Source of the DNA: Pseudomonadota bacterium | Lineage (GTDB): Bacteria; Pseudomonadota; Alphaproteobacteria; G022571365 | Length of the DNA stretch: 64,000 bases | Assembly: GCA_022571365.1 (NCBI GenBank) | Contig: JACZXZ010000003.1 | Coordinates: 2,301 to 66,300 of the forward strand | Direction of reading: 5' to 3' | Shown: piece after piece, positions 1-58,706 of the stretch | Layout of the letters: each line of letters starts with the position of its first letter | Numbering within the stretch: position 1 is the stretch's first letter | The notes under the pieces: generated by a model | Database searches by the model: none | What the model saw: only the letters and a program-made list of their open reading frames with translations | What the model was told of the DNA's origin: nothing | Position numbers and translations under genes: made by a program

Positions 1-929
1 CTTTCGGGAACCCCCCAGGCTTCCAGCCCCTCGGCCAGGGAGTTCATCATCGGCGGCGGCCCGCAGAAATAGAATTCGTAATTGTTGGACGGCAGCAGAC
101 TCCGCAACAGGTCGACGCTCACCCGTTCGCCGTGGTGGTAGTCCTCGCCCGCGACATCGTCCTCGCCGGGATTGCTGTAGCAGACATGCAGATGGACGTT
201 TTCATTCTCCCGGGCGATGGCGCTCAGATGGTCCTTCATGATGTGCTCCTTGCTGTTGCGCACACCCAGGAAGAACCAGGTCTCGCGCTTCGAGCCGGTC
301 TCGACGATCGCGTTCAACATGCTGAGCACCGGCGTGATCCCGACGCCGCCGGCGATCAGCACCGCCGGGGTCTGCTTGGTCATGTCGAGATAGAAATGCC
401 CGCTCGGCGCCTTGACGTCGACGATATCGCCTTCATGGAGCTGGTCGCAGAAGAAACTCGAGGACAGACCCGGGGGTGCGTCCGGCTTGTCGCGTGGCGG
501 CGGCAGCTTCTTGATCGTCACCCGGTAGTGGTCGCTTTTGGGGCTGTCCGAGAGCGAATAGCAGCGGACCACCGGCTTCGGCTGGCCGGCGATGTTCAGC
601 CGGAAGGTGAGGTACTGGCCGGAGTTGAAGGGAGGCAGGGCCTTCCGGTCGTGGGGCCTGAGATAGAAAGAGCTGATGCCCTCGCATTCCAGGGACTTGC
701 GCGCGACCTGGAACTTGCGGAAACCATTCCACGACAGCTCCGTCCGCTCCCGCTCGAACCTGCGATGGGCCATGAGGCCCGCGACCCGCTCCCTGAGGTA
801 TTCCTGCTCGGCCTCGGCGCTGCGTGCGGAGAGCCTGGTGGCGCGCAGGGTGCTGGCCACGAACACGCCGGTATAGACCGCCATGGCCGCGAGAAAGGCG
901 ATCGCCGCGACATTGACCAAAACATCCAT
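1..929 (-). CDS. membrane-anchored FAD/NAD(P)-binding oxidoreductase (ferredoxin-reductase/FNR type); 3' end runs off the window
   Basis: Own minus-strand translation from the ATG at 929-927. It reads MDVLVNVAAIAFLAAMAVYTGVFVAS (TM anchor), VVRCYSLS (RxYS FAD motif), AVLIAGGVGITPVLSML (NAD(P) GGxGxxP motif) and EFYFCGPPPMMNS. The frame stays open to base 1, so it is missing from the supplied ORF track. The listed + ORF 132..980 is its antisense shadow. Confidence 0.8.
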   Translation of the reverse strand, partial: MDVLVNVAAIAFLAAMAVYTGVFVASTLRATRLSARSAEAEQEYLRERVAGLMAHRRFERERTELSWNGFRKFQVARKSLECEGISSFYLRPHDRKALPPFNSGQYLTFRLNIAGQPKPVVRCYSLSDSPKSDHYRVTIKKLPPPRDKPDAPPGLSSSFFCDQLHEGDIVDVKAPSGHFYLDMTKQTPAVLIAGGVGITPVLSMLNAIVETGSKRETWFFLGVRNSKEHIMKDHLSAIARENENVHLHVCYSNPGEDDVAGEDYHHGERVSVDLLRSLLPSNNYEFYFCGPPPMMNSLAEGLEAWGVPE

Positions 930-1216
930 CGGCTCAACTTCCTAGAGTTTACCGCGGGTCTCGAACCGGAACCCCGTTGATATCGTCGTCGATGTTGCAG
1001 ACGCCGTCCATTTCCGTGCCGCCCTTCCGCAGTCCGACACGGCCTCACGCCGCCTTGTGAATACGCTGTCGAAACCCAAAATCAGTGGCGGCCGGAACGA
1101 ACCCGGCCCGCCGTACCTCAGAGGATTAAAGTATCGTTCATTTGCATGCTGTATGCCGCCGTCCTCGGGCGCCCGGAAGCGTAAGAATGGCGAGTTCGAG
1201 CACTGTTACGGCCCCA

Positions 1217-2644
1217 TCAGAACTGGATAAGGAACTCCGTGCGTCCGCCCGAGCCCATGTCACGATCTTCCTGAAAGGAGACGAAGCCCTCGAACTGCAA
1301 CTGCACCCGCCGCCCCAACGCCTGCTGGAGTTGAAAGCCGATGGCGACGGCGTCGAAGCCCTGGTCACCGGTGTCCTTGTGGGCGGCGAGCTCGAGGACA
1401 AGGTTCCGGCGATGGTTGTCCCAGAACGCCTGATAGCCCGTGGCTATTCCAACGATGTCGTTAGGGAAGCTGCTGAGCTCCGACAAATAATTTCCCAGGC
1501 TCGGGGAGGCAAAGAGAATGCCGAGAGCCGCTAAGGCACCGCCGACGACCGGTTCGCGTCCCGCCTGAGTGAAACGATCGATGGCCAAGAAAGGGTTGAC
1601 GTAAACGATGTCATCCGACGACTCGACGGTCCACGACACCTCCGCCGACAGCAGCGCGCCGTCGGCGACCTGCGGCGTGTCCGCGTCTTCGGCGATCGAG
1701 GTGTTGACCCGGAACGTGGTGTTGAAGAGGCCCATGCGCTGCGTCGTGGAGCCGCCGATGTAGAAGGCGTCGCCGTTCGACTCGTCATCCTCGACATAGA
1801 TCATGTCAAGGTTCACCGTGCTGGTCGGCAAGTCCGCCGAGTTGAAGAGGCCGAACATGTAAGGGTCCGATCCGTCACGGAAATCGACGCGGTCGAGCGA
1901 GTCCCACCCCCACACACCGGTAATCCGCAAGTTCGACACGCCGGGAAGGCGCACGTTGTTGCGGACGAGTCCGACCGCGTCAACGGTGTCGTTGATCAGG
2001 ATGCCTTCCTGGAAAATGAGGGGCTGACGGCCGACCGAGAAGCCGAAGTCGAGCAACGTCTGCCCCTCCGGGTCGAGATCGGGAAACACGCTGCCAAGGT
2101 CACCTTCAAAGAACAGGGTCCGGATGTTCGGGTTGAATTCGCTGTTGAATCCGTCTAGCCCGTCTGGCTCGAAGACGTAGCGTGTGAACTGGCCGAACCG
2201 GTTCTTGTCCAGGGGACGGATTTGGAGGAGGATCTTTTCGGTTCCCGTCAGCTGGAGGTTGGCGAAGGCATTTAACCGATGCACCCATTCCGAGATCCGA
2301 TCTGGGATGACACCGTTGTCGAAGGTTTGCAGCGCGGTGCGGTAGGTGGCGAACACCCACAGCCTGGGCTGCCACACCGCGCCGGTCGGTAGTTCGAAGC
2401 CTTCGCCGAGCTGGCCCGTGTCGAGGAAGGGAGGGCCCAGCTCCAGGAGGAGTGACGGACGCGCCGGTATGTCCCCGACCGAGAGGTACGGTGCGGGCTC
2501 GTCGGAAAGCCGGGGGATAGGCGTCGTTTCACCTAGCGGAAAAATCCCGTCGGCTCGAGCCGATGTCGCTCCGACAACGATCATTGCCAGCGCGATGGCG
2601 GCAGCCCGTTTCTTAAACGGCGCGCCCCGATGTGATTTCCACAT
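1217..2644 (-). CDS. putative outer-membrane beta-barrel protein (porin-like)
   Basis: Sec-type leader MWKSHRGAPFKKRAAAIALAMIVVGATSARA. The C-terminal part has alternating hydrophobic/polar strand-like segments and ends in ...RTEFLIQF (terminal aromatic residue typical of OMPs). It lies 76 nt downstream of the pentaheme gene on the same strand. The family was not identified. Confidence 0.6.
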   Translation of the reverse strand: MWKSHRGAPFKKRAAAIALAMIVVGATSARADGIFPLGETTPIPRLSDEPAPYLSVGDIPARPSLLLELGPPFLDTGQLGEGFELPTGAVWQPRLWVFATYRTALQTFDNGVIPDRISEWVHRLNAFANLQLTGTEKILLQIRPLDKNRFGQFTRYVFEPDGLDGFNSEFNPNIRTLFFEGDLGSVFPDLDPEGQTLLDFGFSVGRQPLIFQEGILINDTVDAVGLVRNNVRLPGVSNLRITGVWGWDSLDRVDFRDGSDPYMFGLFNSADLPTSTVNLDMIYVEDDESNGDAFYIGGSTTQRMGLFNTTFRVNTSIAEDADTPQVADGALLSAEVSWTVESSDDIVYVNPFLAIDRFTQAGREPVVGGALAALGILFASPSLGNYLSELSSFPNDIVGIATGYQAFWDNHRRNLVLELAAHKDTGDQGFDAVAIGFQLQQALGRRVQLQFEGFVSFQEDRDMGSGGRTEFLIQF

Positions 2645-2720
2645 AAGCTGAATTCTCCCCTGGACTTTCGCCTCGAACCCTCGTTTTTTTTATGCCCGTA
2701 ACGGCAAGGCCGGGCGTGAC

Positions 2721-4511
2721 CTAATCGTCGATGCTGAAGGTAATATCTCTCTCCCACAGGACTTCGTGGCCGGCCACCACCGCGTCGGCGACCGCGCGGG
2801 CGCTCATGCCGTAATCGAAGCCCACGCCCTGGATGGCAGTGACGAGGTTGACCGGTATCATCTGCACGATCAGGCGGATGGTCGCGCGATACGGACCTTT
2901 TCCGGTCAACGCGTCACCATCGATTCGATAGCTCGCCCAGCGGTGGCCAAGGGGCTCGATGCCCTTTCTATGGTTGCGCTCGACCGTCGATTCGCCGGTG
3001 AGGATCAGCGACAGAGTCGACGGCCGGAGGAACGGGAGTGCAGTGGTCGAGTAAGGGATGGTAATGATCCGTTCCCGCTCGCCGCCGCGAACGTTCTGGA
3101 CGAGGAAGCGCGACTGCAAGGTGAAGAGCTGGTCGTCCAACGGTAGTTCGCCGGCGTGGACGTAAGACGATTCGCCATCCCGATAATCGCCATTGGGGTC
3201 CCGATCGCCCGATTTGAAGATCACCGTTCCCTCCCGGTCGGTGACCGTGACTTGCAGCCAGACCAGCCGCTCTCCGGTGAACCCGGTCGGCACGTTATGG
3301 CCGTCGGTGGCGTTCTCGACTTTCACCTTGAAGCGGATGCCATTCCGGTCCGCTTGTTCGGTCACGATCTCGCCGAGATGGTACCCGTTACGCAGCAGCT
3401 CCAGGCGCTTCTCCCGCGAATAGGCCAGCCGTTCGAGATTGATTTCGATAATCTCCCGCGCGTCCTCGCGGTCGTACCGGTCCTCCCAGATCTCGGGGAA
3501 ATCGGCCTTCATCGGACAGTCGTCGCCTAGATCGTCGAGACACGCCTCGAGCTCGTCCTCCCAGTCCTCCTCTCCCCACGAGGCGCGGTGGTCGAATTGC
3601 AGCCATTCCTCGAGCGTGGCCATCTCTTGCGCCTCGGTGTTGTGGGGAAAGATTCCCGGGTGAATGACCGAGTAATCCGGCCCCGCGAATAAATGATTGG
3701 TCAGCTTTCGCGGCTGGGTCGGGACGTCGCCGATCACGGCCGCGGGACCGTATTCGTAACCCGAGGGAATCCCCTGGACCTGGCCCATGTGACAGTCCTG
3801 ACAGGTCACGCCGCGCCCGGCGGCGGGTGACAGCCGGTATTCGCTGAACGCCTCTTCCAGCCGGAAGCCGTTGAACAGGGTCACGTCGTGGCAGCTGCCG
3901 CAGAAGGTGGAGGTGGAGATCGGGGTGAATAGCTCCACCTTGGTATGGATCTTGCGGCCCGGCTCCTCGGGATCGGTCACCACCCGATACTGGTCGGGGT
4001 TGGCCAGGACGCGCTCGAGTTCCCTATTTCCCGTCGGCCCGTAGACGGGCTGGAGGAGGTCGCCCTCGACCAGCGCGATGCGCCCGCTGATCTTGTTGTA
4101 GGCCTTGTTGACGCGGTGGCAGACGATGCAGGTGATGCCCTCCCGCGAGGTGGGATGCCGCTCCAGATTGGAGATCATGGTCGGTTCGCCGAGGTTCATC
4201 CCCACCTGGTTGTGGCAGCGCATGCAGAAGTCCCCCATGGTGCCGCTCAGCTGCGCGTTAAGGGTGTTTTGGAAAGCCAAGTAGATGGGGCTGAGCTGGG
4301 CGTACGAGTGCTGCGAGACCGACCACTCGCGGTACTGCTTCGGGTGGCAGGCGGCGCAGGTCGTCGCCGAGGGGTAGCGGCTCTCGGCGAAGAGCGCCTC
4401 GTGCGGTTCCTCTTCCTGGGCGGCGGCGGTCGTCCAGCCGAGCGTCAAAATGGCGAGGGCGGCGGAGGCGCGCAGCAACGCCCCGGCGAACCGGCCGATG
4501 CGCTTCCCCAT
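2721..4511 (-). CDS. periplasmic pentaheme c-type cytochrome
   Basis: Internal ATG at 4511 gives MGKRIGRFAGALLRASAALAILTLGWTTAAAQ (signal peptide). Five CXXCH motifs: CAACH, CMRCH, CIVCH, CGSCH, CQDCH. The C-terminal region contains NATDGHNVPTGFTGE. The 5' extension of the track ORF to 4841 overlaps the upstream gene and is Pro/Arg/Ser-rich junk. Confidence 0.85.
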   Translation of the reverse strand: MGKRIGRFAGALLRASAALAILTLGWTTAAAQEEEPHEALFAESRYPSATTCAACHPKQYREWSVSQHSYAQLSPIYLAFQNTLNAQLSGTMGDFCMRCHNQVGMNLGEPTMISNLERHPTSREGITCIVCHRVNKAYNKISGRIALVEGDLLQPVYGPTGNRELERVLANPDQYRVVTDPEEPGRKIHTKVELFTPISTSTFCGSCHDVTLFNGFRLEEAFSEYRLSPAAGRGVTCQDCHMGQVQGIPSGYEYGPAAVIGDVPTQPRKLTNHLFAGPDYSVIHPGIFPHNTEAQEMATLEEWLQFDHRASWGEEDWEDELEACLDDLGDDCPMKADFPEIWEDRYDREDAREIIEINLERLAYSREKRLELLRNGYHLGEIVTEQADRNGIRFKVKVENATDGHNVPTGFTGERLVWLQVTVTDREGTVIFKSGDRDPNGDYRDGESSYVHAGELPLDDQLFTLQSRFLVQNVRGGERERIITIPYSTTALPFLRPSTLSLILTGESTVERNHRKGIEPLGHRWASYRIDGDALTGKGPYRATIRLIVQMIPVNLVTAIQGVGFDYGMSARAVADAVVAGHEVLWERDITFSIDD

Positions 4512-4512
4512 G

Positions 4513-6444
4513 TCACAGCATCCCTTTCTTGAAAGCGGGTTCCAAGTGGTAGAGATGGCAGAGCTGGCAATCCTCGCGCACCTGGCCCTTGGCGTGGCAC
4601 GCTGTGCAGGTGGCGATGCCGATCGCCTTGAAGTTGCTGACGAAGGCGCTGGCATCCCAGGTCTTGAACGATTTCCCATAGTCGGCCGTTTCATCCAGCT
4701 TATGACACGCACGACACCCGGCCCCCGGCCCCAATAGGGTGATGTGCGGCTTGTGGGCGAACCGGGTGTAGAACCGGTCCGTGGCCCCAGGACGCGTCCA
4801 TTCGATGTTGAGCATAACGTCGGCGGCGGCGTTTTGTCCATCCGTGGGGGAAGGCGCGCTCACGGCATGGCATTTGATGCAGCCGCCCGGGCCGTCGGAC
4901 ACCGACAGCAGCTGGTTGCGCATGGCCTCGGCACGACTCCTGTCCTCCTCGTCCTCGGCTCCGGCCGCCGCGGCAATGGCGAATTCCAGCCAGGCCTTGA
5001 CAACCGGGTCGGCGTGGCCGCCGGGCCGGTAACGAATCTCGGTGCCGTCGCCGTACCAGCCGCCGAACTCGGCCTCGGCCGGCGCCTCGTATTCCAGGTT
5101 CGCGGCCCAGGCGCAGGCGGCCTGTTTGGCGGTCTCCGGGCTGAGGCCGGCGAGCAGCGCGTTGGGAGCCGCCGGGTCCGAGCGCTCGGCGATCACCTGG
5201 GCGAGGGGGCCGGCGCCGCTTGTCGCCATCGCGAGCACGAGCTCTTGCATGGGTTGCTGGTAGGCTTCCGGATCATCGCCGTCGATGCCCAGGAGATATG
5301 CGCCGATGGCCGTCGGCGAATCCCAGGAGACGCTTTCGTAGTCTTCCAGTTCCTCCTCTTCCACGGCCTCGCCCGCTGCCATGGCCGCGATGCGATCCCG
5401 GAGGCTGTCCAGCGCCTCCAGGGTGGGACCGCAGGCTTCAAGCACATCCTCTCGGTCGATCAGGTTCTCGGTAAACTCGGGCAGGTTCAGCACGACCAGC
5501 TCTTTCCGGGGAATCGCCTTGGCGTGGCACGCGGCGCAGGTCTTTTCAAAGCCGGCCGGCCGCACCTCGCGTTCGGCCGTTTCCACCTCATGGCAGGACA
5601 CGCAGCCCTGGGGTGCCCTGTCGACGTAACGCGGATCCTCGAAATGGATGTTGAAGTGTCTGGTGTGATCGAAATGAATTGCGGTGCGCTCCTGGTAGGG
5701 GAACCTGGGACCGAAGTCGGGGTGGCCGCTGGCGAAACGGGGGGCCTTGAGCTTGTGGCAGCTGTTGCATTGGGCGGCGCTCATCATGCTTATGTCGGCG
5801 TCCTCGCCCTTGTGCTCGGTGTGGCACATGATGCAGGTCGTCTCGGCGAGGTCGGCGCGGCCGGGGAAGGTGGCGTTGTGGGCCAGATTCGCCGGGCCGC
5901 CGAAGACATGGCAGGTCACGCATTGCTGGTCCAGGTCATCGGCCGAGAAGGCGGCTTTCAGCCAGCCCCGGACGCCTTGATCGTGGGCTTCGTGACAGGC
6001 GACGCAGCCGCGATCCTTGGTGAAGTTGGCATGGGCGCCGGACAGCGGCCCGGGATTGACGGAGGTCAGCGTCCCGGCGCCGTCCGGAGGGAGGCCGAGA
6101 AACGCGGCGATCAACGCCACGGTTAGCGCCACGGAGAGCAATGTCAGGCGGCCGCGATAGGCCCGCAAGGTGGGGCGCGGTACGCACGGAGGTTGCTGTT
6201 GCGAACAGGTGCCGTCGGGCAACGGCCCCTCGGCGCAGGGTCCGCCGGCGGTCCGGGGCCGGCGGCACTCGTATCGGTCGTCCTTGAAGAACGGGGCGCA
6301 TTCGGTGGTGCCGCCGCAGGTTCCGTCGATGTTCGGCCCGCGGGCGCAGGGCTTTCCCCACAGCGCCGCGCGGCCGCAGCGGTAGGGGAAGGTCGGGCGC
6401 TCATAGGCGCTTCGGTCGTGCCGGAAGCGTTCCGGGTCGATCAC
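4513..6444 (-). CDS. membrane-anchored decaheme c-type cytochrome with Cys-rich N-terminal domain
   Basis: Ten CXXCH motifs: CVACH, CVTCH, CIMCH, CNSCH, CVSCH, CAACH, CIKCH, CRACH, CTACH, CQLCH. One TM helix (LTLLSVALTVALIAAFLGL) follows a 99-aa N-terminus with 8 Cys. I chose the GTG at 6444-6442 because it forms a GTGA overlap with the stop of the upstream gene (6443-6441). The track start at 6729 would overlap that gene by ~290 nt. Confidence 0.8.
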   Translation of the reverse strand: MIDPERFRHDRSAYERPTFPYRCGRAALWGKPCARGPNIDGTCGGTTECAPFFKDDRYECRRPRTAGGPCAEGPLPDGTCSQQQPPCVPRPTLRAYRGRLTLLSVALTVALIAAFLGLPPDGAGTLTSVNPGPLSGAHANFTKDRGCVACHEAHDQGVRGWLKAAFSADDLDQQCVTCHVFGGPANLAHNATFPGRADLAETTCIMCHTEHKGEDADISMMSAAQCNSCHKLKAPRFASGHPDFGPRFPYQERTAIHFDHTRHFNIHFEDPRYVDRAPQGCVSCHEVETAEREVRPAGFEKTCAACHAKAIPRKELVVLNLPEFTENLIDREDVLEACGPTLEALDSLRDRIAAMAAGEAVEEEELEDYESVSWDSPTAIGAYLLGIDGDDPEAYQQPMQELVLAMATSGAGPLAQVIAERSDPAAPNALLAGLSPETAKQAACAWAANLEYEAPAEAEFGGWYGDGTEIRYRPGGHADPVVKAWLEFAIAAAAGAEDEEDRSRAEAMRNQLLSVSDGPGGCIKCHAVSAPSPTDGQNAAADVMLNIEWTRPGATDRFYTRFAHKPHITLLGPGAGCRACHKLDETADYGKSFKTWDASAFVSNFKAIGIATCTACHAKGQVREDCQLCHLYHLEPAFKKGML

Positions 6445-7250
6445 AGCGCGTACACGTTCACCAGAATGAGATGCCAAAGCGCCAGCGCCAGCACCGCGGC
6501 GGCCAGCGGCACATGCGACAGCGGCCACCATTTGGTGAGGCTTTGCGCGGCGTAGTGAAAATCGATCTTGTTCTTGGCCTCGGCCAGCGCCCTGAGTTTC
6601 TCCCAGTGCCGGTGTTCGGCCTCGTTGAGCAAGCGCTCGACCGAGGTGAAGTTGCGGCGCACCCAGTGTTCGGAGCCGCGGCCGCCGAGGGCGTGGTTGA
6701 GAAAGAAGCGCGGCCGGCGGAAGAACCACTCCAGCGTTTCCGTGTAGTGCCGCGCCAATGTGTCGCTGCCGGTCTCGTCCGTGCAGGCCAGCACGATATT
6801 CTGCCCCTCGTCACGCAGGTCGGCGAGCTCCCCGGGGATCCGCTCATAGATCACCTCGATCCCGGTTTGCGTCAGCCGGCGCGGATAGCTCCGCTGGATG
6901 ATGTAGCCGGCGATCCCGGTGAAGCTGACCAGGTAGAACAGCACGGCGAGCAGCTGTTCATAGGGCCCGTTGGGCCACAGCGCGCCACTGTGCAACCAGA
7001 ACAGGGCGATGGCGAAAACCCCGCCGACCGCATGCAGTTCGAGCCATGTCGTGGCGCCGCCAAGCGGCAGCATAGGGAGCTTTTTACGCAGGTTGAACAG
7101 GCCCAGTCCGACCATGACCGCGAACAGCAGATAGCCGGTCAAGATCACCGGATTCCCGAGCCTGAGGCGGACTTCGTGGGCGTGATAAGCGAGCGCTGCG
7201 AACAGCACCGCGGCGACGATCCACATGATTGCGATCTGGCGCGACCTCAT
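6441..7250 (-). CDS. integral membrane protein, candidate di-heme b-type cytochrome
   Basis: About five hydrophobic helices. Two helices each carry a His pair with 13 intervening residues: LHAVGGVFAIALFWLH and SHVPLAAAVLALALWH. There is an ATGA overlap with the upstream gene (7250-7247) and a GTGA overlap with the downstream gene. Confidence 0.7.
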   Translation of the reverse strand: MRSRQIAIMWIVAAVLFAALAYHAHEVRLRLGNPVILTGYLLFAVMVGLGLFNLRKKLPMLPLGGATTWLELHAVGGVFAIALFWLHSGALWPNGPYEQLLAVLFYLVSFTGIAGYIIQRSYPRRLTQTGIEVIYERIPGELADLRDEGQNIVLACTDETGSDTLARHYTETLEWFFRRPRFFLNHALGGRGSEHWVRRNFTSVERLLNEAEHRHWEKLRALAEAKNKIDFHYAAQSLTKWWPLSHVPLAAAVLALALWHLILVNVYAL

Positions 7251-8950
7251 TTGAGGGCGGCCGAGAACGGATCAGGCTGGTTGAAATCGACGCGGCGCAG
7301 GGCGTCGTGGGGGCAGGCGCGGACGCAGGCCGGTCCGCCGAGCTGGCCCTCGCACAAATCGCATTTGGTGGCCTTGAAGATCGGTCGGCCGCTGTCCGGA
7401 TCGGCCAGGGGCTGGCCTGACTGGTCGCGGATCTCGACCATGCGGATGTTGTCGTAGGGACAGGCGTTGGCGCAGGTGGCGCAGCCGATACAGGTGTCGT
7501 CGTTGATCACCACCATGCCGGTCTCGACGGTGCGATGGATCGCCCCGGTCGGACAGCCGATCATGCACACCGGGTCGGCGCAGTGCATGCAGGCGTTGGC
7601 GACCATCCAATGGTCGATCGTCTTGCCGTGGCGGATGAAGCGCGGGTTGCCGCCGTGGTTGGCGGCACAGGCACGGACGCAGTCGTCGCACCGCACGCAT
7701 CGGTCGAGATCGATGAGCATGGCCTGGGTGGCGTTGATGAAGCGTTCCTCGACCGCCCATTCCAGCAGGGAGTCGGCGACCAACGGCTGGTCGGGGGCGA
7801 CCATCGGCGCCGGCGGGCGGGCGACGTTCGGGAAGACATATTTTTCGAGGATCGGCGCCGGGACCCGCAGGATATCGACGTAGCCCAGGGCGGTCAGCGT
7901 CGTCCTGAGTCCGAGCTCCGTCCCCTCTTTCCAGGCCGTGTACAGCTCCTCGAACCCATAGGCCTCACCGGCCCCCAGATATGCCAGGACGTTTTCGCCG
8001 TGGCCGGCGCGCACCGAGACTCGGGCGAAACCGGCGCGGATGAGCAATACCCCGTCCGGGTAGTCCCCCTCATGGGCTATGACCGGCTCGTGCGCGGCCG
8101 TGCGTTCACCCCGCTCGCGCAATTTCTGGTACGACACGTGCCAGTCGAAGCTACCGTAGGTCTCGAACAGGGTGGCGTCGGCCACTTGTTGCAGGATCTC
8201 CTGGTCGAGCCCTGCGAACAGCGGGCTGTCCTGCAGGTGTGCCTTGAGCGCGTTTTCGCGATAGCGCTCGTCGATCCTTCGGCGCCAGCCCTCGTCGTAG
8301 CGGCGCAGCTCCCGCAAACCCTGCCAGCGGATCTCGAGCAGCACGGCGTCGGTCTCCGCAAACACGCTGGCCGTGCGCGGGATGCGTCCCAGTGCCGCCA
8401 GCTCGCCGAAGAACTCCCCTTGGCCCAGCCGGGCGGTCTTGTGCTGGTCGAGAATGGCGGGAATGTCCTGCAAGAACACCCGGACCTTTTGGGCGTCGTC
8501 GTCGGCGCGCAGGCCCCTGTCGGTGTAGCGCCGGACGTCGCGCACCTCGGGAAGCCGGCGGTTCGTCCACAGCTGCCCCAGGGCTTCGAAGAAACCCTTC
8601 TCATGCGGCGCTTGGCGGCCCAGAAGATTGCTCGGCAGGGAGGGCGCCAAGACAACACGCAGCTTGCCTTCAAGCACGAGGAAGGCCGAGCTGCCGTAGT
8701 CGCCCTCGCGGACCACGATGTCGCCCGCGGTGTAGTGCATGATCCGCGTGTCGTTCTTGAGGATGCCTTTAAGCGGGGTGTGGCCGGGGAATTTGTCGGC
8801 GTGGATCGCCGCGATCTCGGGCCGCTGGATCAGCAGCGCCACATCCTCCCCGGTCATGTCCGGGCCGAAGGGCGTGTCCCACCGCTGCGGGCGGGCCATG
8901 GTCGCGACCTGTATCATGGTATCGCCTTCGGGCGTTCTCCTCGGCCGCAT
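7247..8950 (-). CDS. cyclic-nucleotide-binding (2 domains) / four-cluster [4Fe-4S] ferredoxin fusion protein
   Basis: The N-terminal half has CAP-type cNMP motifs (GDIVVREGDYGSSAFLVLEGKL ... FFGELAALGRIPRTASV) and a second degenerate copy. The C-terminal half has CVRCDDCVRAC, CMHCADPVCMIGCP, CIGCATCANACP and CDLCEGQLGGPACVRACP, a DmsB/NrfC/HybA-like arrangement. No Tat or Sec leader is present. Alternative starts are at 8917 (MIQV, preceded by GAAGG) and 8899. Confidence 0.85.
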   Translation of the reverse strand: MRPRRTPEGDTMIQVATMARPQRWDTPFGPDMTGEDVALLIQRPEIAAIHADKFPGHTPLKGILKNDTRIMHYTAGDIVVREGDYGSSAFLVLEGKLRVVLAPSLPSNLLGRQAPHEKGFFEALGQLWTNRRLPEVRDVRRYTDRGLRADDDAQKVRVFLQDIPAILDQHKTARLGQGEFFGELAALGRIPRTASVFAETDAVLLEIRWQGLRELRRYDEGWRRRIDERYRENALKAHLQDSPLFAGLDQEILQQVADATLFETYGSFDWHVSYQKLRERGERTAAHEPVIAHEGDYPDGVLLIRAGFARVSVRAGHGENVLAYLGAGEAYGFEELYTAWKEGTELGLRTTLTALGYVDILRVPAPILEKYVFPNVARPPAPMVAPDQPLVADSLLEWAVEERFINATQAMLIDLDRCVRCDDCVRACAANHGGNPRFIRHGKTIDHWMVANACMHCADPVCMIGCPTGAIHRTVETGMVVINDDTCIGCATCANACPYDNIRMVEIRDQSGQPLADPDSGRPIFKATKCDLCEGQLGGPACVRACPHDALRRVDFNQPDPFSAALK

Positions 8951-9123
8951 CCCATCGCCGCCATCCCGGGTAAGGGCGGGGGCTTACGGCTTGTAGTCTA
9001 TAGCGTTGACCCGCCGGCGCTCACGGCCGGGTGCCAGCCGCCGCCTTGAGGGAGTGGCGCGGCTCGCCGCTCTGGGTTTCGTGACCTTTGCTGCCGCAGG
9101 GCATCCTTGATGTCGCGTCTATT

Positions 9124-10077
9124 CTATTTGTAGGTGCCTTTGCCAGGCAGCATGCCCCCGACCTCCTGGGTGAGGTCCTTGTCCAGGATTGCCTCGACCA
9201 CGGCCCTGGCGTTGGCGTCGCTTGGCTCGGACAGGAGCGCCGCGGCCTCGGGCACGGCGGCGCTTACCGCCTCAAGCGCCGCCCGCGCGGCCTCGATCCG
9301 CGCCTTTTGCGCGCCGGCATATTTGGCGTGGTCGGTCTTGCCCAGCGCCGCGGTCGCGCTCACCAGCGACGCCGCGTGGCCGGTGACGAACAGCCGCGCC
9401 AGCTCCGCCGGCGTCATCTCGGCGTTCGTGGTCGTGTCCGGCCGGTAGAAGCGGTGCCTCACCGTCCCCTGGGAGTAGCGCACTAGCTCGAACTCGGGGT
9501 TGATCGGATGGCCGGCCTCGAGCATCGCCGTCACGGTCTCTCCGTCGAGCTCCGGGTTGGTCATGCCATGGCAGGACAGGCAATTCAGGGCCACGTCATA
9601 GATCATGTAGGGCCAGGTCATGCCGGCGTCTGCGGCAGCTTTGAGGCGCTCGGCCCTGTGCTCGGCCGTCTCGGCTTCGGGCTTCACGCCGGCGCCGCCG
9701 AAGTTGTCGTGGATGGGGAACCAATCGGACGAGGCGCCGTGACAGCTTTCGCAGGACGGGCCGGCCCTGGCCTTGGCTTCTGCGTCGGCATCCTTCTGGA
9801 CCATGGTGTAATGGCACAGGGTGCAGACTTGGTTGCGCTTTGGGTTCTTCTTCCCGCCGACGGCCTTGACGATGGCCTTGGCCTCGTCGGTCTTGTGCAT
9901 TTCCTTGAACGACGTGAAGTGCTTGGTTCCCTCCTCCCAGACCTTGTACTCGGCCTCGTGGCATTCCAGGCACTTCTTGGGGCCCTGGAAGAAAGGCTCG
10001 GCCTGGGCGCCGACGCCCGGGGAAAAGGCGATGGTGGCAAGGCCGATCACAAGTCCGTAAAACCCGTGCCTACCCAT
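9124..10077 (-). CDS. periplasmic tetraheme c-type cytochrome
   Basis: Signal peptide MGRHGFYGLVIGLATIAFSPGVGAQA. Four CXXCH motifs: CLECH, CTLCH, CESCH, CLSCH. An AAGGGGG Shine-Dalgarno sequence lies upstream of the ATG. Confidence 0.85.
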   Translation of the reverse strand: MGRHGFYGLVIGLATIAFSPGVGAQAEPFFQGPKKCLECHEAEYKVWEEGTKHFTSFKEMHKTDEAKAIVKAVGGKKNPKRNQVCTLCHYTMVQKDADAEAKARAGPSCESCHGASSDWFPIHDNFGGAGVKPEAETAEHRAERLKAAADAGMTWPYMIYDVALNCLSCHGMTNPELDGETVTAMLEAGHPINPEFELVRYSQGTVRHRFYRPDTTTNAEMTPAELARLFVTGHAASLVSATAALGKTDHAKYAGAQKARIEAARAALEAVSAAVPEAAALLSEPSDANARAVVEAILDKDLTQEVGGMLPGKGTYK

Positions 10078-10106
10078 AAAGCCCCCTTACTTTTTGGTTC
10101 ATTTGT

Positions 10107-10129
10107 CCGTGATCCTACCCGTGATCCTA
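10107..10129 (-). promoter_or_regulatory. tandem direct repeat CCGTGATCCTA x2 in the 5' leader of the tetraheme gene
   Basis: Copies at 10107-10117 and 10119-10129 are identical 11-mers with a 12-bp period. They sit 30-50 nt upstream of the start codon at 10077. Confidence 0.25.
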
Positions 10130-10445
10130 TCGGTCGTTTGGGGCAAAACCAACCTGAAAATCAACAACCCGCTTAAGGCGCGTTTCCGATTTCGGTGGGG
10201 GACTTTCGCGGCGGCCCGGCGTCCCATCCCGGGGCGGGGGTGCTGGGTGGCTTCGGCGGAGGTGCGTTGATGACGAGGTGCCAGCCCACCCACCCGGCCT
10301 CGTTCGATGGTTTCGGGGCGTTCGGCGATACGGGTCGGCGCCGCGGCGTTCTTGGCGATGATCAGGGATCGGCTGGCTTCCCCCAATCGCCAGAATCCGC
10401 TGGTCGGACGGCTTGACCTTTCCCGGGGCGGGGGATGGCCTGCGC

Positions 10446-12074
<1,629 letters not shown>

Positions 12075-13235: not shown

Positions 13236-13430
13236 ATGAAATCGCAATATTTTCGCTTCGCCGTGCTGCTCGCCGGTTGCGCGGCGAGGTTGCCGAGTGC
13301 CCCCAATGCGCGGGTGGGCGGGGCTCCATTGGCGGCACCCGTTACACCGCAAAATGCGAAGGGCGTAAGCTGGAAGGGCAACAGGCCTCGCTTTCCTCGC
13401 GGCGCGAACGCAATGGGGAGGAGAAGATGA
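13236..13430 (+). CDS. small putative lipoprotein (64 aa)
   Basis: MKSQYFRFAVLLAGC has a lipobox (LLAGC). AAGGGGGG lies 6 nt upstream of the ATG. Its TGA overlaps the next ATG (ATGA at 13427-13430). The remainder is low complexity, so this call is uncertain. Confidence 0.4.
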   Translation: MKSQYFRFAVLLAGCAARLPSAPNARVGGAPLAAPVTPQNAKGVSWKGNRPRFPRGANAMGRRR

Positions 13431-14317
13431 AAACCAAGGCACTTATCCCGGCGTTGTTGGTTACCTGCGGCTTGGCAGTGTCGGGGTGCGAGACACTCAC
13501 AGAGACATTCGCGTTCGACGCCATTCCCCGAGCCACATTCGGAGACACCGTCATTGGTGAGGCCGCCAAAAAAGAGTGGAAGATTACGGACCGGATCATT
13601 CTCTCGTACGCCGATGACGTTGAGAAATTCATGCGCATGAGAATGAGCGGGAAAAGGGTCCTTCGGAAGGCTTCCGCCAGCATCCAGGTCATGACTGCGG
13701 CGATAGCCACGGCGCTCGCCGGCTTCGGTGGGCCGGCCGCAGTGATTGCGGGCTTTGCAGGAGTCAGCGCGATCATCCCCGAGTTCCAGAGCATTTTTCA
13801 GGCGGCGGGAGGGGCCGAGGCGTTCGGTCGTGGCGCCGAGCTCATTGGAGACGCGAAGACGGAGTATGTGATTGCGATATCGAAAAAAGGTGGGCAGGTG
13901 CAGGGTGCGTTAACGCCGGAAGGCGCGGCTCTCTACAAGAGAGTCGTGGCATCAATCGTCGTCGTTGAGAGGGCCTTGCTGCAGCAAATCCCGACCCGCA
14001 AACAAATCGAGGACGCTGAAGGAAATTTTAAACGGGCGTTCGAGAGAAAATTAGAAGCCGCTGGGATAGACAAAGCGATAGACAAAGCGGTAGCCATAGA
14101 GAAGTTAAAAGCCCTCATAGCCAAGACTAAGGAAGCCGGGGGCGACACAACCGAATTGGAGGAAATTCTGAGCAAGATTGAAGTCAAGTCAGACGAGGGT
14201 GTCGCGGCGCCTGCGGAGACGGAGACCCAGCCTACGGAGACGGAGACCCAGCCTACGGAGACGGAGACCCAACCTGCGGAGACGGAGACCCAGCCTACGG
14301 AGCCGACGCCCCAGTAG
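13427..14317 (+). CDS. lipoprotein with C-terminal ETETQPT repeats
   Basis: The internal ATG at 13427 is preceded by GGGGAGGAG. MKTKALIPALLVTCGLAVSGC carries a lipobox. The body is predicted helical, and the C-terminus is ETETQPT x4.5. I recognised no family. Confidence 0.7.
   Translation: MKTKALIPALLVTCGLAVSGCETLTETFAFDAIPRATFGDTVIGEAAKKEWKITDRIILSYADDVEKFMRMRMSGKRVLRKASASIQVMTAAIATALAGFGGPAAVIAGFAGVSAIIPEFQSIFQAAGGAEAFGRGAELIGDAKTEYVIAISKKGGQVQGALTPEGAALYKRVVASIVVVERALLQQIPTRKQIEDAEGNFKRAFERKLEAAGIDKAIDKAVAIEKLKALIAKTKEAGGDTTELEEILSKIEVKSDEGVAAPAETETQPTETETQPTETETQPAETETQPTEPTPQ
14214..14300 (+). repeat. 21-bp in-frame tandem repeat (about 4 copies)
   Basis: Units (G/A)CGGAGACGGAGACCCA(G/A)CCT start at 14214, 14235, 14256 and 14277. 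They encode the ETETQPT repeats. Confidence 0.9.
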
Positions 14318-14631
14318 GTAGTCGAGGGGGTCGCGGCGCGTGCGGAGACTCCCTACAGCTACGAACACGGCCGAGCAACAGACCGAAGGAGGGGCGAACG
14401 GAAGCGAGTCTGCGGCCAGTGGTCCCGAAGGTGGAACCGGGGGCGAGCTAAATAAACCGGGAGGCCCCGAAGGGTCCAAGAGTTGCCATTGACAGGGTTG
14501 GGCTTCATTGCCGTCTACCAGGCCTGTTGTTGCGGGTCCACCGCCATTTCGGCCGTGCGGGAAATGCCTTCGAGACGCCTCGAGGAACGATTGCATAAGA
14601 TACAAGGAGCACGCGGTGAAGGAAGAGACCG

Positions 14632-45286: not shown

Positions 45287-45555
45287 GGCAACGAGCCTCC
45301 TTGGCTTCTCGACGATCCGCCATTGCTGCTTTGGAGATGGTATGGGCGAGGGGTATTGGGAAGGGACCGGGCTTGTCCCGGGTCCGCTCTCGAATGCGCT
45401 TCGCGCCGGCCGGCGCGAAGCCCCGGAAGTCCGCCTTTCGGAGCATCATCGCGGCGTCGGCGGGGGTGCCGCTTCCCCCTTGGAGGGGAGGCTGGTCCGT
45501 AGAGCGTGGCCGTGGTATAGGCTTCAGACCATCGCATGAGCTGAACGGAAGCGCT

Positions 45556-55713: not shown

Positions 55714-56261
55714 ATCCGAGCGTTCCGGCTGAGCCGCTGGCGGCGCCCGCGCCCCCCGGTCCCGAGCAGGACGCGCTCCTGAAAGCGGCGACCGGCGAGC
55801 TGGCGGACAAAGGCTTCATCGTCGCCCGGCTCGACAAGCTGGTGAGCTGGGCGCGCGCCGGGTCGCTCTGGCCGATGACGTTCGGGCTTGCCTGCTGTGC
55901 GATCGAGATGATGCACACCGCGGCCAGCCGCTACGACCTCGACCGCTTCGGCGCGTTGTTCCGGCCGAGCCCGCGCCAGTCCGACGTCATGATCGTGGCC
56001 GGCACCCTGTGCAACAAGATGGCGCCGGCGCTGCGCAAGGTTTACGACCAGATGGCCGAGCCCCGCTGGGTGATCTCCATGGGTTCATGCGCCAATGGCG
56101 GCGGCTATTATCACTACTCCTACTCGGTGGTCCGGGGCTGCGACCGCATCGTCCCGGTCGACATTTACGTCCCCGGCTGCCCGCCGACCGCCGAGGCCCT
56201 CCTGTACGGCATTCTGCAGCTGCAGAAGAAGATCAGGCGGACCAGCACCATCGCCCGGTAG
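55704..56261 (+). CDS. nuoB: NADH-quinone oxidoreductase subunit B
   Basis: [27 protein letters not shown] and VPGCPP. I prefer the ATG at 55704 because AAAGGAG lies 8 nt upstream. Confidence 0.9.
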
Positions 56262-56284
56262 CAGGACGCTTGCGGGCAAGGGAC

Positions 56285-58705: not shown

Positions 58706-58706
<1 letters not shown>
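58086..58706 (+). CDS. nuoE: NADH-quinone oxidoreductase subunit E
   Basis: ATGA overlap with nuoD. The 2Fe-2S ligands are in LCTTTPCWL and [11 protein letters not shown]. Confidence 0.9.

What the first reader, a model, noticed from the sequence alone, without database searches (positions are those of the whole stretch)
1217..10077. Candidate undescribed trans-envelope electron conduit: cytoplasmic cNMP-binding FeS protein, bis-His membrane protein, anchored decaheme, soluble pentaheme and outer-membrane barrel in one coupled operon
Seen:
- Six same-strand genes run from 10077 down to 1217.
- The FeS gene, the membrane gene and the decaheme gene are joined by start/stop overlaps (ATGA at 7250-7247, GTGA at 6444-6441).
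- The decaheme stop (4515-4513) is 1 nt from the pentaheme ATG (4511). A leader-bearing protein ending ...EFLIQF follows after 76 nt.
- I count 10 + 5 CXXCH in the operon and 4 more in the upstream gene 9124..10077.
- The FeS protein has four CxxCxxCxxxC(P)-type clusters and no Tat or Sec leader, so it should be cytoplasmic.
- The decaheme has a single TM helix, with RAYRGR on its N-terminal side.

Known: characterised porin-cytochrome systems (MtrCAB, PioAB/MtoAB, Geobacter Pcc/Ext) combine periplasmic multihemes with an outer-membrane barrel. They are fed by quinol dehydrogenases (CymA, ImcH, CbcL types), not by a cytoplasmic cyclic-nucleotide-domain ferredoxin.

Inference: the five products could form a continuous redox path from the cytoplasm to the cell surface that bypasses or supplements the quinone pool. 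The direction (metal reduction, Fe(II) oxidation or electron uptake) cannot be read from the sequence.
Basis: partly seen in the sequence, partly recalled or inferred. Interest (0 to 1): 0.85.

Follow-up and report, generated by a model that had tools for sequence, protein, structure and literature searches.

The report
Ptd multiheme electron-export gene cluster
This is a complete copy of the ptd gene cluster, named in a 2023-24 preprint but never tested, which appears to carry electrons from NAD(P)H inside the cell across the inner membrane to a five-heme protein and a barrel protein at the outer membrane.

Summary
All coordinates, gene overlaps and heme counts check out, and all 19 CXXCH motifs in the six-frame translation of the window lie in the three cytochrome frames.

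The cluster is not undescribed. It is the ptdABCDEFG operon named in bioRxiv 10.1101/2023.11.21.568154, whose function is called "completely unknown" there.

It is a membrane-anchored NAD(P)H/FAD/2Fe-2S reductase that runs off the window start.

Among 35 related loci with at least 8 kb on both sides of ptdB, 26 carry the full set. No eighth gene family recurs.

New details found here:
- PtdE has four 4Fe-4S sites and one intact cyclic-nucleotide pocket.
- PtdF has two histidine pairs, each spaced 13 residues apart, on two membrane helices. This is the pattern of a two-heme b cytochrome.
- PtdG carries a conserved cytoplasmic 8-cysteine domain.
- PtdE-PtdF and PtdG-PtdD occur as natural fusion proteins.
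- PtdB is predicted to be a barrel of about 18-20 strands, like AlgE or OprD, not like MtrB.
- PtdA belongs to the pentaheme family of T. tepidum c552 and MccSep, whose one characterised member is an enzyme.

Best reading: a quinone-independent, NOX-like electron-export chain. It most likely ends in a periplasmic reductase with its own outer-membrane channel. A true porin-cytochrome wire is not excluded.

The parts
1..929 (-). ptdC, 5' part (309 of 421 codons; runs off the window start). N-terminal TM anchor, then cytoplasmic FAD_binding_6 and NAD_binding_1. The C-terminal 2Fe-2S domain lies outside the window.
   Evidence: Translation. Pfam: NAD_binding_1 1e-21, FAD_binding_6 1e-7, NAD_binding_6 2.5e-5. 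The PtdC encoded on contig L089 is 99% identical over the 309 shared residues; it gives the full 421-aa protein with Fer2. Best PDB relatives are the flavohemoglobin reductase domain (3e-53) and NqrF.
1217..2644 (-). ptdB: outer-membrane beta-barrel of 475 aa. It has a signal peptide, no Cys and a C-terminal ...EFLIQF.
   Evidence: AF2 pLDDT 75.7 with about 19 long antiparallel strands. Foldseek best hits are AlgE, OprD/Occ, MOMP, chitoporin and Wzi (E 1e-11 to 1e-8, TM 0.5-0.65). No Pfam or NCBIfam family, including MtrB_PioB. Strands alternate hydrophobic and polar faces, and the lumen face is far more conserved.
2721..4511 (-). ptdA: periplasmic pentaheme cytochrome (5 CXXCH) with a C-terminal Ig-like/beta-sandwich domain. 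Member of the PHC family (c552/ExtKL-MccSep).
   Evidence: PDB 5ZE8 (T. tepidum c552) E=1e-12 to 1e-13, including the C-terminal GH..PTG motif. Weak collinear match to MccSep 9WT8/9WT9. The Sec325 position is F411 (>=95% conserved in 71 sequences) and the Cys239 position is invariant L218.
4513..6444 (-). ptdG: inner-membrane-anchored decaheme (10 CXXCH), GTG start overlapping the ptdF stop.
   Evidence: The N-terminal region is conserved in homologues starting directly after ptdF.
6160..6444 (-). Cytoplasmic 8-Cys domain of PtdG (residues 1-95), followed by the single TM helix (residues ~98-120, nt 6085-6153).
   Evidence: All 8 Cys are conserved in the homologues whose N-terminal region was recovered, from Nitrospinota, Alpha- and Gammaproteobacteria. 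558 representative clusters carry it, nearly always at the N-terminus; most full-length members are ~600-1100 aa. The four long members read in full have a TM helix and CXXCH motifs after it.
6441..7250 (-). ptdF: 5-TM membrane protein with a ~115-aa helical cytoplasmic domain. Putative two-heme cytochrome b.
   Evidence: Invariant H73/H87 (TM3) and H246/H260 (TM5), each pair spaced 13 residues. AF2 pLDDT 93.5. 11/33 members weakly hit DUF4405 and 4/33 hit Ferric_reduct. No PDB sequence or fold match.
7247..8950 (-). ptdE: cytoplasmic protein with two cNMP-binding domains and four [4Fe-4S] sites (NrfC/DmsB/HydN-type). Probable true start at 8917.
   Evidence: Pfam cNMP_binding 2e-23 and Fer4_11. 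NCBIfam AegA/DmsB/HydN/NrfC-like. All 16 Cys are at least 95% conserved. Domain 1 has the pocket motif FGE[LIV]AAL.R.PR[TS]A[TS] in 43-47 of 47 sequences; the domain 2 pocket is degenerate.
9124..10077 (-). ptdD: soluble periplasmic tetraheme, cytochrome c554-like, with a signal peptide.
   Evidence: 4 CXXCH. Pfam Cytochrome_C554 4e-12. Occurs fused to the C-terminus of PtdG in P0399.

Best explanation
The locus is a complete ptd cluster in the order ptdD-E-F-G-A-B-C.

**Proposed path**
1. PtdC, anchored in the inner membrane with its domains in the cytoplasm, oxidises NAD(P)H through FAD and a 2Fe-2S centre.
2. Electrons pass to the four 4Fe-4S clusters of cytoplasmic PtdE. Its first cyclic-nucleotide domain probably gates the flow in response to cAMP or cGMP.
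3. PtdE docks on PtdF, which carries two b hemes (H73+H246 on the inner side, H87+H260 on the outer side). PtdF moves the electrons across the inner membrane without using quinones, as NOX/FRE ferric reductases and the Fre-MsrQ pair do.
4. On the periplasmic side the ten hemes of membrane-anchored PtdG take over. The soluble tetraheme PtdD then carries electrons to the pentaheme PtdA.
5. I commit to the view that PtdA is the terminal reductase, working just beneath the outer membrane. PtdB would be its dedicated channel of about 18-20 strands for substrate or product, not a sheath around a heme wire.

The substrate is unknown. Candidates suited to the marine hosts are chelated or colloidal Fe(III), giving reductive iron uptake like eukaryotic FRE, or iodate.

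**Shown here:** gene content, motifs, domain families, topology signals, co-occurrence, the two fusions and the barrel fold.

**Inferred:** every electron-transfer step, the direction of flow, the cofactor occupancy of PtdF and of the PtdG Cys domain, and the last step.
For: - **Identity as ptd:** the same seven architectures as in bioRxiv 10.1101/2023.11.21.568154.
- **One functional set:** 26 of 35 well-flanked loci hold all genes. A-B-C-D always keep their order, E-F are always adjacent, and no eighth family recurs.
- **Physical coupling:** B/C and C/D overlap by 4 nt and D/E are 1 nt apart. A natural PtdE-PtdF fusion exists (P0336), as does a PtdG-PtdD fusion (P0399).
- **NAD(P)H entry:** PtdC is a flavohemoglobin/NqrF-type reductase with a 2Fe-2S domain. 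Its positively charged stretch after the TM helix places the domains in the cytoplasm.
- **PtdE:** 16 conserved Cys and a conserved cNMP pocket in domain 1.
- **PtdF:** two invariant His pairs spaced 13 residues apart on two helices that run in the same direction; high-confidence helical model; weak DUF4405/Ferric_reduct signal.
- **Direction:** moving electrons outward is favoured both by the low potential of NAD(P)H and by the membrane potential (established bioenergetics, inference).
- **Last step:**
  - PtdA is homologous to soluble c552, and more weakly to MccSep, a periplasmic polysulfide reductase.
  - The two PtdA loops that align with the MccSep active-site loops are at least 95% conserved.
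  - The PtdB fold matches 18-strand substrate channels.
  - Its lumen-facing residues are strongly conserved: entropy 0.85 against 1.59 bits for the lipid face, with 50 positions at least 90% conserved.
  - No cytochrome has a lipoprotein signal for surface display.
Against: - No experiment exists for any Ptd protein.
- PtdF does not reach any Pfam threshold and has no fold match in the PDB. Heme b binding therefore rests on the histidine pattern alone.
- PtdA lacks the Sec/Cys and the distal Cys that make MccSep an enzyme. It could be a pure electron carrier.
- Nineteen c-hemes and a soluble shuttle are more than a periplasmic reductase needs, and resemble systems that reach the outer membrane.
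- The strict PtdA-PtdB gene pairing is also what porin-cytochrome pairs show.
- Six of 35 loci have only ptdAB and three have only ptdAB plus ptdD, so the outer module can work with other electron sources.
- The role of PtdE is unclear if PtdC could reduce PtdF directly.
Confidence: 0.42

Rival explanations
1. True porin-cytochrome conduit, as the first reader and the ptd preprint propose. PtdA, or part of it, sits in PtdB and passes electrons through the outer membrane to an insoluble or extracellular acceptor such as Fe(III) or Mn(IV) oxides. The inner-membrane chain is the same as in the best explanation.
For: - PtdA and PtdB are always adjacent and co-oriented in about 80 loci.
- There are 19 c-hemes plus a soluble shuttle.
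- The barrel lumen is strongly conserved, as expected for a tight protein-protein interface.
- The N-terminal periplasmic segment of PtdB is conserved.
- From my own recall, not checked here: small barrels are proposed to conduct electrons in Geobacter Pcc (about 20 strands) and in Cyc2.
Against: - The barrel has about 18-20 strands. My estimate from barrel geometry is a lumen of about 20-25 Å, against about 35 Å for 26-strand MtrB, which is too narrow for a folded pentaheme domain.
- There is no MtrB_PioB or MtrA/DmsE family signal.
- No surface lipoprotein cytochrome is present.
- The closest relatives of PtdA are soluble periplasmic proteins, one of them an enzyme.
Confidence: 0.3
2. Two separate systems that are often neighbours. 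PtdAB(C) would be a self-contained outer module, and PtdDEFG an unrelated inner-membrane redox module. They would not form one electron path.
For: - The modules occur in different relative orders and orientations, and as divergent operons.
- Six of 35 loci have ptdAB only and three have ptdAB plus ptdD only.
- The modules have partly independent histories. In L001, L003 and L005, PtdE and PtdF are 52-68% identical to the window but PtdA and PtdB only 27-42%. In the Hyphomicrobiales loci the pattern is reversed.
Against: - 26 of 35 well-flanked loci from several phyla keep both modules within 10 kb.
- In the window D and E are 1 nt apart.
- PtdG and PtdD have no other obvious periplasmic acceptor in the cluster.
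- PtdC travels with either module.
Confidence: 0.1
3. Inward flow. PtdA/PtdB would oxidise an external or periplasmic donor such as Fe(II), reduced sulfur or a cathode, and the chain would deliver electrons to cytoplasmic FeS centres and NAD(P)+.
For: - The hosts include lithotrophs such as Nitrospinaceae and Methylococcales.
- From my own recall, not checked here: related porin-cytochrome systems (PioAB, MtoAB) work in the oxidising direction.
- T. tepidum c552 has been suggested to act in sulfur metabolism (quoted).
Against: - Moving electrons inward through a two-heme b protein works against the membrane potential, and NAD(P)+ needs about -320 mV. No energy-coupling subunit is present (inference from bioenergetics; gene content).
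- The flavohemoglobin/NqrF-type reductase modules that PtdC resembles normally oxidise NAD(P)H.
Confidence: 0.07

Closest known systems
ptdABCDEFG operon (bioRxiv 10.1101/2023.11.21.568154; marine oxygen-deficient-zone Alphaproteobacteria UBA11136 and other marine MAGs)
   Same: The same seven protein architectures: pentaheme with a beta-sandwich, barrel, FAD/NAD(P) reductase, tetraheme, cNMP-FeS protein, ferric-reductase-like membrane protein and decaheme. It has the same type of hosts and the same uncharacterised status.
   Different: - The gene order here is D-E-F-G-A-B-C.
- My analysis finds four rather than two 4Fe-4S sites in PtdE.
- PtdG is membrane-anchored with a cytoplasmic 8-Cys domain, not simply periplasmic.
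- PtdC is TM-anchored with a 2Fe-2S domain.
- I did not have the MAG protein sequences of the preprint for a direct comparison.
MtrCAB / PioAB / MtoAB porin-cytochrome complexes
   Same: A gene for a periplasmic multiheme cytochrome sits next to a gene for an outer-membrane barrel. Both have many c-hemes spanning the periplasm.
   Different: - The barrel has about 18-20 strands with an AlgE/OprD-like fold, not 26-28 strands, and has no PF11854 signal.
- There is no MtrA/DmsE-family decaheme (28.7 bits against a cut-off of 192).
- There is no surface lipoprotein cytochrome.
- There is no CymA-type quinol dehydrogenase.
Geobacter ExtHIJKL cluster and MccSep (ExtKL) polysulfide reductase (Sci Adv 2026, PMC13510729; PDB 9WT8)
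   Same: PtdA shares the PHC fold plan of a five-heme cap plus an Ig-like stem with a GH..P.G loop. According to PMC11976967, extKL lies in a cluster that also encodes the outer-membrane porin ExtI and the multiheme cytochromes ExtM and ExtN. NCBIfam names ExtN and ExtO, a b-type cytochrome with an iron-sulfur cluster-binding domain, as subunits of the same operon.
   Different: - The PtdA position of Sec325 is F411 (>=95% conserved), and the position of the heme-ligating Cys239 is invariant L218.
- The ExtKL model scores 35.7 bits against a cut-off of 250.
- ExtN and ExtO score about 15 bits against 200.
- PtdB was not compared with ExtI directly.
NOX/FRE ferric-reductase-domain oxidoreductases and the bacterial two-component Fre-MsrQ system
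   Same: Both move electrons from NAD(P)H to flavin to two b hemes stacked across the membrane, held by two His pairs on two parallel helices (TM3 and TM5). As in Fre-MsrQ, the flavin reductase is a separate FNR-type protein.
   Different: - PtdF has 5 TM helices rather than 6, and carries a large cytoplasmic helical domain.
- It has only sub-threshold Pfam signal and no PDB fold match.
- A four-cluster FeS protein with cNMP domains is interposed.
- The acceptor is a chain of c-hemes, not O2, Fe(III) or MsrP.
E. coli Nrf system (NrfA pentaheme enzyme, NrfB pentaheme carrier, NrfC four-cluster FeS, NrfD membrane subunit)
   Same: The logic is the same: a pentaheme terminal protein, multiheme carriers, an NrfC-type four-cluster protein (TIGR03149, E=2e-14) and a membrane subunit. 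The subunit roles of the E. coli Nrf system are from my own knowledge.
   Different: - PtdE is cytoplasmic and fused to cNMP domains.
- The membrane subunit is a two-heme b type rather than NrfD.
- The electron source is NAD(P)H rather than quinol.
- PtdA has no CXXCK catalytic heme motif.

Membership tests
ptdABCDEFG cluster (bioRxiv 10.1101/2023.11.21.568154) | [quoted passage not shown] | tested here: met
   5 CXXCH. Homology to 5ZE8 in both the heme and C-terminal parts. AF2 barrel. 76-nt spacing between the genes.
ptdABCDEFG cluster (bioRxiv 10.1101/2023.11.21.568154) | [quoted passage not shown] | tested here: met
   Partial gene at 1-929 with FAD_binding_6 and NAD_binding_1. The full 421-aa form with Fer2 is in L089, whose PtdC is 99% identical over the 309 shared residues.
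ptdABCDEFG cluster (bioRxiv 10.1101/2023.11.21.568154) | Tetraheme (PtdD), cNMP-binding FeS protein (PtdE), ferric-reductase-like membrane protein (PtdF) and decaheme (PtdG) | tested here: met
   The order D-E-F-G is kept in all loci that carry these genes.
ptdABCDEFG cluster (bioRxiv 10.1101/2023.11.21.568154) | Direct sequence similarity to the Ptd proteins of the MAGs in the preprint | not tested
   Those sequences were not at hand. Membership rests on identical architectures, synteny and host range (marine Alphaproteobacteria, Gammaproteobacteria). The nitrite-oxidiser loci found here are Nitrospinaceae/Nitrospinota, whereas the preprint names Nitrospirales; this difference was not resolved.
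MtrAB/PioAB/MtoAB porin-cytochrome | MtrB/PioB-family barrel (Pfam PF11854, 26-28 strands) | tested here: not met
   None of 40 PtdB family members hits PF11854 even at E<=1. The model has about 19 strands and its best fold matches are 18-strand barrels.
MtrAB/PioAB/MtoAB porin-cytochrome | MtrA/DmsE-family periplasmic decaheme (TIGR03508) | tested here: not met
   PtdA scores 28.7 bits and PtdD 18.1 bits against a cut-off of 192.2. PtdG has no hit.
MtrAB/PioAB/MtoAB porin-cytochrome | Electron transfer through the barrel to the cell exterior | not testable with these tools
   Needs a complex model with hemes, or proteoliposome or surface-accessibility experiments.
MccSep/ExtKL polysulfide reductase family | Five CXXCH cap plus an Ig-like stem (PHC fold plan) | tested here: met
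   Collinear profile match to 9WT8/9WT9 in four segments, but weak (E about 0.05). Stronger match to 5ZE8. NCBIfam ExtKL scores 35.7 bits against a cut-off of 250.
MccSep/ExtKL polysulfide reductase family | Conserved Sec/Cys in the GH..PDG[U/C]P loop, and a distal Cys ligand on heme 2 | tested here: not met
   The aligned positions are F411 (>=95% conserved in 71 sequences; not in the invariant list of A3) and L218 (invariant). PtdA has no Cys outside CXXCH that reaches even 80% conservation in 71 sequences. The alignment is weak, so register errors are possible.
Ferric-reductase-domain / two-heme cytochrome b clan (PF01794, DUF4405) | Two His pairs spaced 12-14 residues on two transmembrane helices | tested here: met
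   H73/H87 on helix 66-88 and H246/H260 on helix 210-268, invariant in 33 sequences.
Ferric-reductase-domain / two-heme cytochrome b clan (PF01794, DUF4405) | Significant match to the family model or to a solved member | tested here: inconclusive
   The window protein has no hit. 11 of 33 relatives hit DUF4405 (best 1.4e-5) and 4 of 33 hit Ferric_reduct (best 0.003). There is no PDB sequence hit and no Foldseek hit below E=0.1.
NrfC/DmsB/HydN four-cluster ferredoxins (Fer4_11) | Four Cys groups for four [4Fe-4S] clusters | tested here: met
   16 Cys in four groups, all at least 95% conserved. Fer4_11 2e-10. AegA, DmsB, HydN and NrfC models score 1e-14 to 1e-18, all below their equivalog cut-offs.
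Cyclic-nucleotide-binding domain (PF00027) | Phosphate-binding cassette with the Gly-Glu and Arg-Thr/Ser residues | tested here: met
   In domain 1, F181 and G182 occur in 47/47 sequences, E183 in 43/47 and R192 in 43/47; position 193 is T (30/47) or S (10/47). Domain 2 lacks the Arg. Ligand binding itself was not tested.

The most novel reading that the evidence does not exclude
Ptd is a new type of envelope-spanning respiratory or assimilatory pathway in aerobic and microaerobic marine bacteria, including nitrite oxidisers and methanotrophs.

In this reading a split NOX-like module exports electrons from NAD(P)H across the inner membrane without quinones. The module consists of the PtdC flavoprotein, cNMP-gated PtdE with four clusters, and two-heme PtdF, which may be completed by the TM helix of PtdC or PtdG.

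The export would be electrogenic. The 19 c-hemes and the PtdAB outer-membrane module would then deliver the electrons to an extracellular or channel-delivered acceptor. One example would be a bacterial counterpart of eukaryotic FRE reductive iron uptake. Another would be a missing marine iodate, Fe(III) or Mn(IV) reductase.
Probability: 0.35. Interest if true: 0.85.

Novelty: new member of a known kind. Interest (0 to 1): 0.55.

Why it matters
- **Abundance.** Ptd genes are common in marine metagenomes. More than 1,100 PtdB clusters were found at 90% identity, and 246 relatives among the GTDB species genomes.
- **Expression.** ptdAB is reported as highly transcribed in the largest oceanic oxygen-deficient zone.
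- **No known function.** No Ptd protein has been tested experimentally.
- **What it would add if the chain works as proposed.** It would be a quinone-independent route from NAD(P)H to the outer membrane under cyclic-nucleotide control. That bears on open questions about who reduces iron, manganese or iodate in low-oxygen seawater, and how.
- **What this analysis contributes.** It gives concrete residues and constructs to test: the four PtdF histidines, the PtdE cNMP pocket, the PtdG 8-Cys domain and two natural fusions. It also sets up a clear alternative, enzyme plus channel against wire, that simple experiments can separate.

Tried and rejected
**Searches that found nothing**
- Pfam and NCBIfam gave no family for PtdF or PtdB.
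- PDB sequence searches with profiles of both proteins gave nothing.
- Foldseek of the confident PtdF model gave no match below E=0.1.
- The promoter and terminator scan of 1-10600 was at or below the level of shuffled sequence.
- Rfam found only four tRNAs, all elsewhere in the window.
- Clustering all ORFs from 84 loci found no eighth conserved partner, such as a cyclase, a regulator or a ccm gene.
- Further literature searches found no second description of the cluster.

**Readings rejected**
- Membership in MtrAB/PioAB: the family models are not met.
- A MccSep-type polysulfide or selenite reductase: the catalytic Sec/Cys and the distal Cys are absent.
- A close orthologue of Geobacter Ext or Cbc: scores are far below the cut-offs.

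**An argument I withdrew**
I first reasoned that PtdA and PtdB are much more conserved than PtdD-G. That is partly a selection artefact, because most loci were retrieved by similarity to PtdB. In loci retrieved through PtdF the pattern reverses. Only the within-protein contrast between the lumen face and the lipid face of PtdB is free of this bias.

**Caveat on one fusion**
The PtdE-PtdF fusion rests on one metagenome protein. It could be a frameshift at the ATGA overlap.

Full report
**1. Checking the observation**

The ORF list and a direct motif count confirm six minus-strand genes at the stated coordinates.
- The overlaps are real: ATGA at 7250-7247 and GTGA at 6444-6441.
- The decaheme TGA stop (4515-4513) lies one base before the pentaheme ATG (4511).
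- A 76-nt gap precedes the 475-aa gene.
- CXXCH counts are 4, 10 and 5. These 19 motifs are the only ones in any of the six reading frames of the 64-kb window.

Pfam and NCBIfam give the following.
- The tetraheme is cytochrome c554-like.
- The 567-aa protein has two cNMP-binding domains plus an NrfC/DmsB/HydN-type four-cluster ferredoxin module.
- The decaheme and pentaheme match generic multiheme families.
- The 269-aa membrane protein and the 475-aa protein match nothing.

**2.

Translating the minus strand below 1217 reveals a seventh gene. It starts at 929 and runs off the window start. It has a TM helix followed by FAD_binding_6 and NAD_binding_1 domains. A metagenome contig whose encoded PtdC is 99% identical over the 309 shared residues shows the full 421-aa protein, ending in a plant-type 2Fe-2S domain. 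Its closest solved relatives are the reductase domain of flavohemoglobin (E=3e-53) and NqrF.

The first 95 residues of the decaheme, before its single TM helix, carry eight Cys. These are conserved in homologues from several phyla. An exhaustive search found this domain in 558 representative clusters. It lies nearly always at the N-terminus; most full-length members are about 600-1100 aa. The four long members read in full continue with a TM helix and CXXCH motifs.

**3. It is already named**

A full-text search found bioRxiv 10.1101/2023.11.21.568154. That preprint defines the ptdABCDEFG operon as follows:
- PtdA: pentaheme with a beta-sandwich
- PtdB: porin
- PtdC: FAD/NAD(P) oxidoreductase
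- PtdD: tetraheme
- PtdE: cNMP-binding protein with 4Fe-4S clusters
- PtdF: ferric-reductase-like membrane protein
- PtdG: decaheme

The authors found it in marine Alphaproteobacteria, Gammaproteobacteria, nitrite oxidisers and Planctomycetes. They report high ptdAB transcription in an oxygen-deficient zone. They suggest a porin-cytochrome complex and state that the function "remains completely unknown". No other paper uses the name.

The window therefore holds a new copy of a described but uncharacterised cluster, in the order D-E-F-G-A-B-C.

**4. Conservation as a set**

Homologues of PtdF in three distant MAGs all sit in the same seven-gene set. A scan of GTDB species genomes with a PtdB profile found 246 relatives, and 80 loci were fetched; all but one or two record titles mark them as MAGs or uncultured-organism assemblies. 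They come from Nitrospinaceae, Hyphomicrobiales, Rhodospirillales, Methyloligellaceae, Anderseniella, Geminicoccaceae, Methylococcales and Omnitrophota.

Synteny by tblastn shows these patterns.
- PtdA and PtdB are always adjacent and co-oriented.
- PtdD-E-F-G always keep that order.
- PtdC follows either PtdB or PtdG.
- Of 35 loci with at least 8 kb on both sides of ptdB, 26 have the full set, 6 have only ptdAB and 3 have ptdAB plus ptdD.

Clustering all ORFs of 84 loci shows that only these seven families recur.

The two modules have partly separate histories. In loci reached through PtdF, the inner-membrane proteins are closer to the window than PtdA and PtdB are. In Hyphomicrobiales loci the reverse holds.

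**5. The parts**

*PtdE.* All 16 Cys are at least 95% conserved, which gives four clusters rather than the two stated in the preprint. The phosphate-binding cassette of cNMP domain 1, FGE[LIV]AAL.R.PR[TS]A[TS], is kept in 43-47 of 47 sequences. That of domain 2 is degenerate. There is no leader peptide, so the protein is cytoplasmic.

*PtdF.* H73/H87 and H246/H260 are invariant, and each pair is spaced 13 residues apart. The AF2 model is confident, with pLDDT 93.5, five TM helices and a helical cytoplasmic domain. By the positive-inside rule both His-bearing helices run from inside to outside. H73 and H246 therefore lie at the inner level and H87 and H260 at the outer level. This is the arrangement of a two-heme b cytochrome such as the NOX/FRE ferric-reductase domain. 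Family evidence is weak: 11 of 33 relatives hit DUF4405 and 4 of 33 hit Ferric_reduct, all below threshold. There is no PDB match by sequence or fold.

*Fusions.* P0336 (828 aa) is PtdE fused to PtdF. P0399 (1099 aa) is PtdG fused through a long charged linker to PtdD. Both support direct partnerships. The first rests on a single metagenome protein.

*PtdB.* The AF2 model (pLDDT 75.7) has about 19 long antiparallel strands. Its best fold matches are AlgE, OprD/Occ, MOMP, chitoporin and Wzi, all 18-strand barrels. None of 40 family members hits MtrB_PioB or any other family. Strands alternate a hydrophobic face with a polar face. The polar (lumen) face is much more conserved: entropy 0.85 against 1.59 bits. 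Fifty lumen positions are at least 90% conserved in 84 sequences, including 9 basic and 9 acidic residues. A Gly/Ala-rich loop at 357-396 is among the most conserved segments of the protein.

*PtdA.* It is homologous to the soluble pentaheme c552 of T. tepidum (5ZE8) in both domains. It matches MccSep/ExtKL of Geobacter weakly but collinearly. MccSep was recently shown to be a periplasmic polysulfide reductase with a Sec and a His/Cys-ligated heme (PMC13510729). In PtdA the Sec position is F411 (>=95% conserved) and the distal Cys position is invariant L218. PtdA is therefore not that enzyme. However, the two loops that build the MccSep active site are among the best-conserved parts of PtdA. 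According to PMC11976967, extKL lies in a cluster that also contains extI, which encodes an outer-membrane porin. The title of a paper cited in PMC13510729 reports selenite uptake through ExtI.

**6. Mechanism**

The best-supported part is the inner-membrane path:
NAD(P)H → PtdC (FAD, 2Fe-2S) → PtdE (four 4Fe-4S clusters, gated by cNMP) → PtdF (two b hemes) → PtdG (ten c-hemes) → PtdD → PtdA.

Outward flow is favoured by the potential of NAD(P)H and by the membrane potential. Inward flow to NAD(P)+ would need an energy input, and no gene in the cluster could supply it. This step is inference.

The topology of PtdC and PtdF invites a split-NOX idea. PtdF ends outside the membrane after TM5. PtdC begins outside with a TM helix that leads into its FNR-type domain, as TM6 and the dehydrogenase domain do in NOX. 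The NOX topology is from my own knowledge. This is a lead, not a result.

For the last step I favour PtdA as a terminal reductase with PtdB as its channel. The reasons are the family precedent, the barrel size, the conserved polar lumen and the lack of a surface cytochrome. The wire model stays plausible because of the heme count, the soluble shuttle and the strict PtdA-PtdB pairing.

**7. Verdict**

- The cluster is already described, so the window holds a new member of a known but uncharacterised kind.
- Interest is moderate. The system is abundant, unexplained and now more testable, but the claim that it is undescribed fails.

Noticed in passing
window 13277-16308: There is a low-GC island: GC is 0.55 at 14-16 kb against about 0.65 around it. 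It holds a Tle1-like T6SS phospholipase effector gene (14632-16308, Pfam 6e-80). Just before it is a 346-aa protein with a C-terminal TETQP repeat (13277-14317) and no Pfam match. This looks like a horizontally acquired effector.
   Followed up: partly
L049 2708-10247: One Rhodospirillales MAG carries two divergently oriented ptdA-ptdB pairs side by side. None of the other ptd genes lies within the fetched flanks.
   Followed up: no
L005 8354-10004 (and L006): In an Alphaproteobacteria MAG, PtdE is called as two genes: a 303-aa cNMP part and a 253-aa FeS part that overlap by about 20 nt. This is either a real split or a frameshift.
   Followed up: no
P0336 (JGI metagenome protein) and P0399 (representative-library protein): Two natural fusions were found: PtdE-PtdF (828 aa) and PtdG-PtdD (1099 aa, joined by a long Lys/Glu/Ala-rich linker). 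Other PtdG relatives of 800-1100 aa carry long acidic or Pro-rich inserts between the two heme blocks.
   Followed up: partly
L007, L008, L069: Some Nitrospinaceae and Omnitrophota genomes have only ptdA-ptdB plus a c554-like tetraheme within 10 kb. This suggests a minimal outer module that is fed by other periplasmic carriers.
   Followed up: partly
window 930-1216 and 8951-9123: The two longest intergenic gaps of the cluster are 287 nt before ptdC and about 175-205 nt before ptdE. They have no Rfam match and no promoter or terminator signal above chance. The 287-nt gap has the same length in the related contig L089.
   Followed up: partly
window 45301-48138 and 56000-64000: The window also holds a 945-aa protein with 13 Sel1 repeats, a peptidoglycan-binding domain and a trypsin-like protease domain. 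A NuoG homologue (60005-62080), probably part of a complex I operon, lies near the window end. The window is ordinary chromosome: DEAD-box helicase, GyrB/ParE-type topoisomerase, Lon protease and four tRNAs.
   Followed up: no
window 4744-6126 (+), 7535-9049 (+): Long antisense ORFs of 460 and 504 aa lie opposite ptdG and ptdE. They are the usual artefact of high-GC DNA. They have no support as genes.
   Followed up: no
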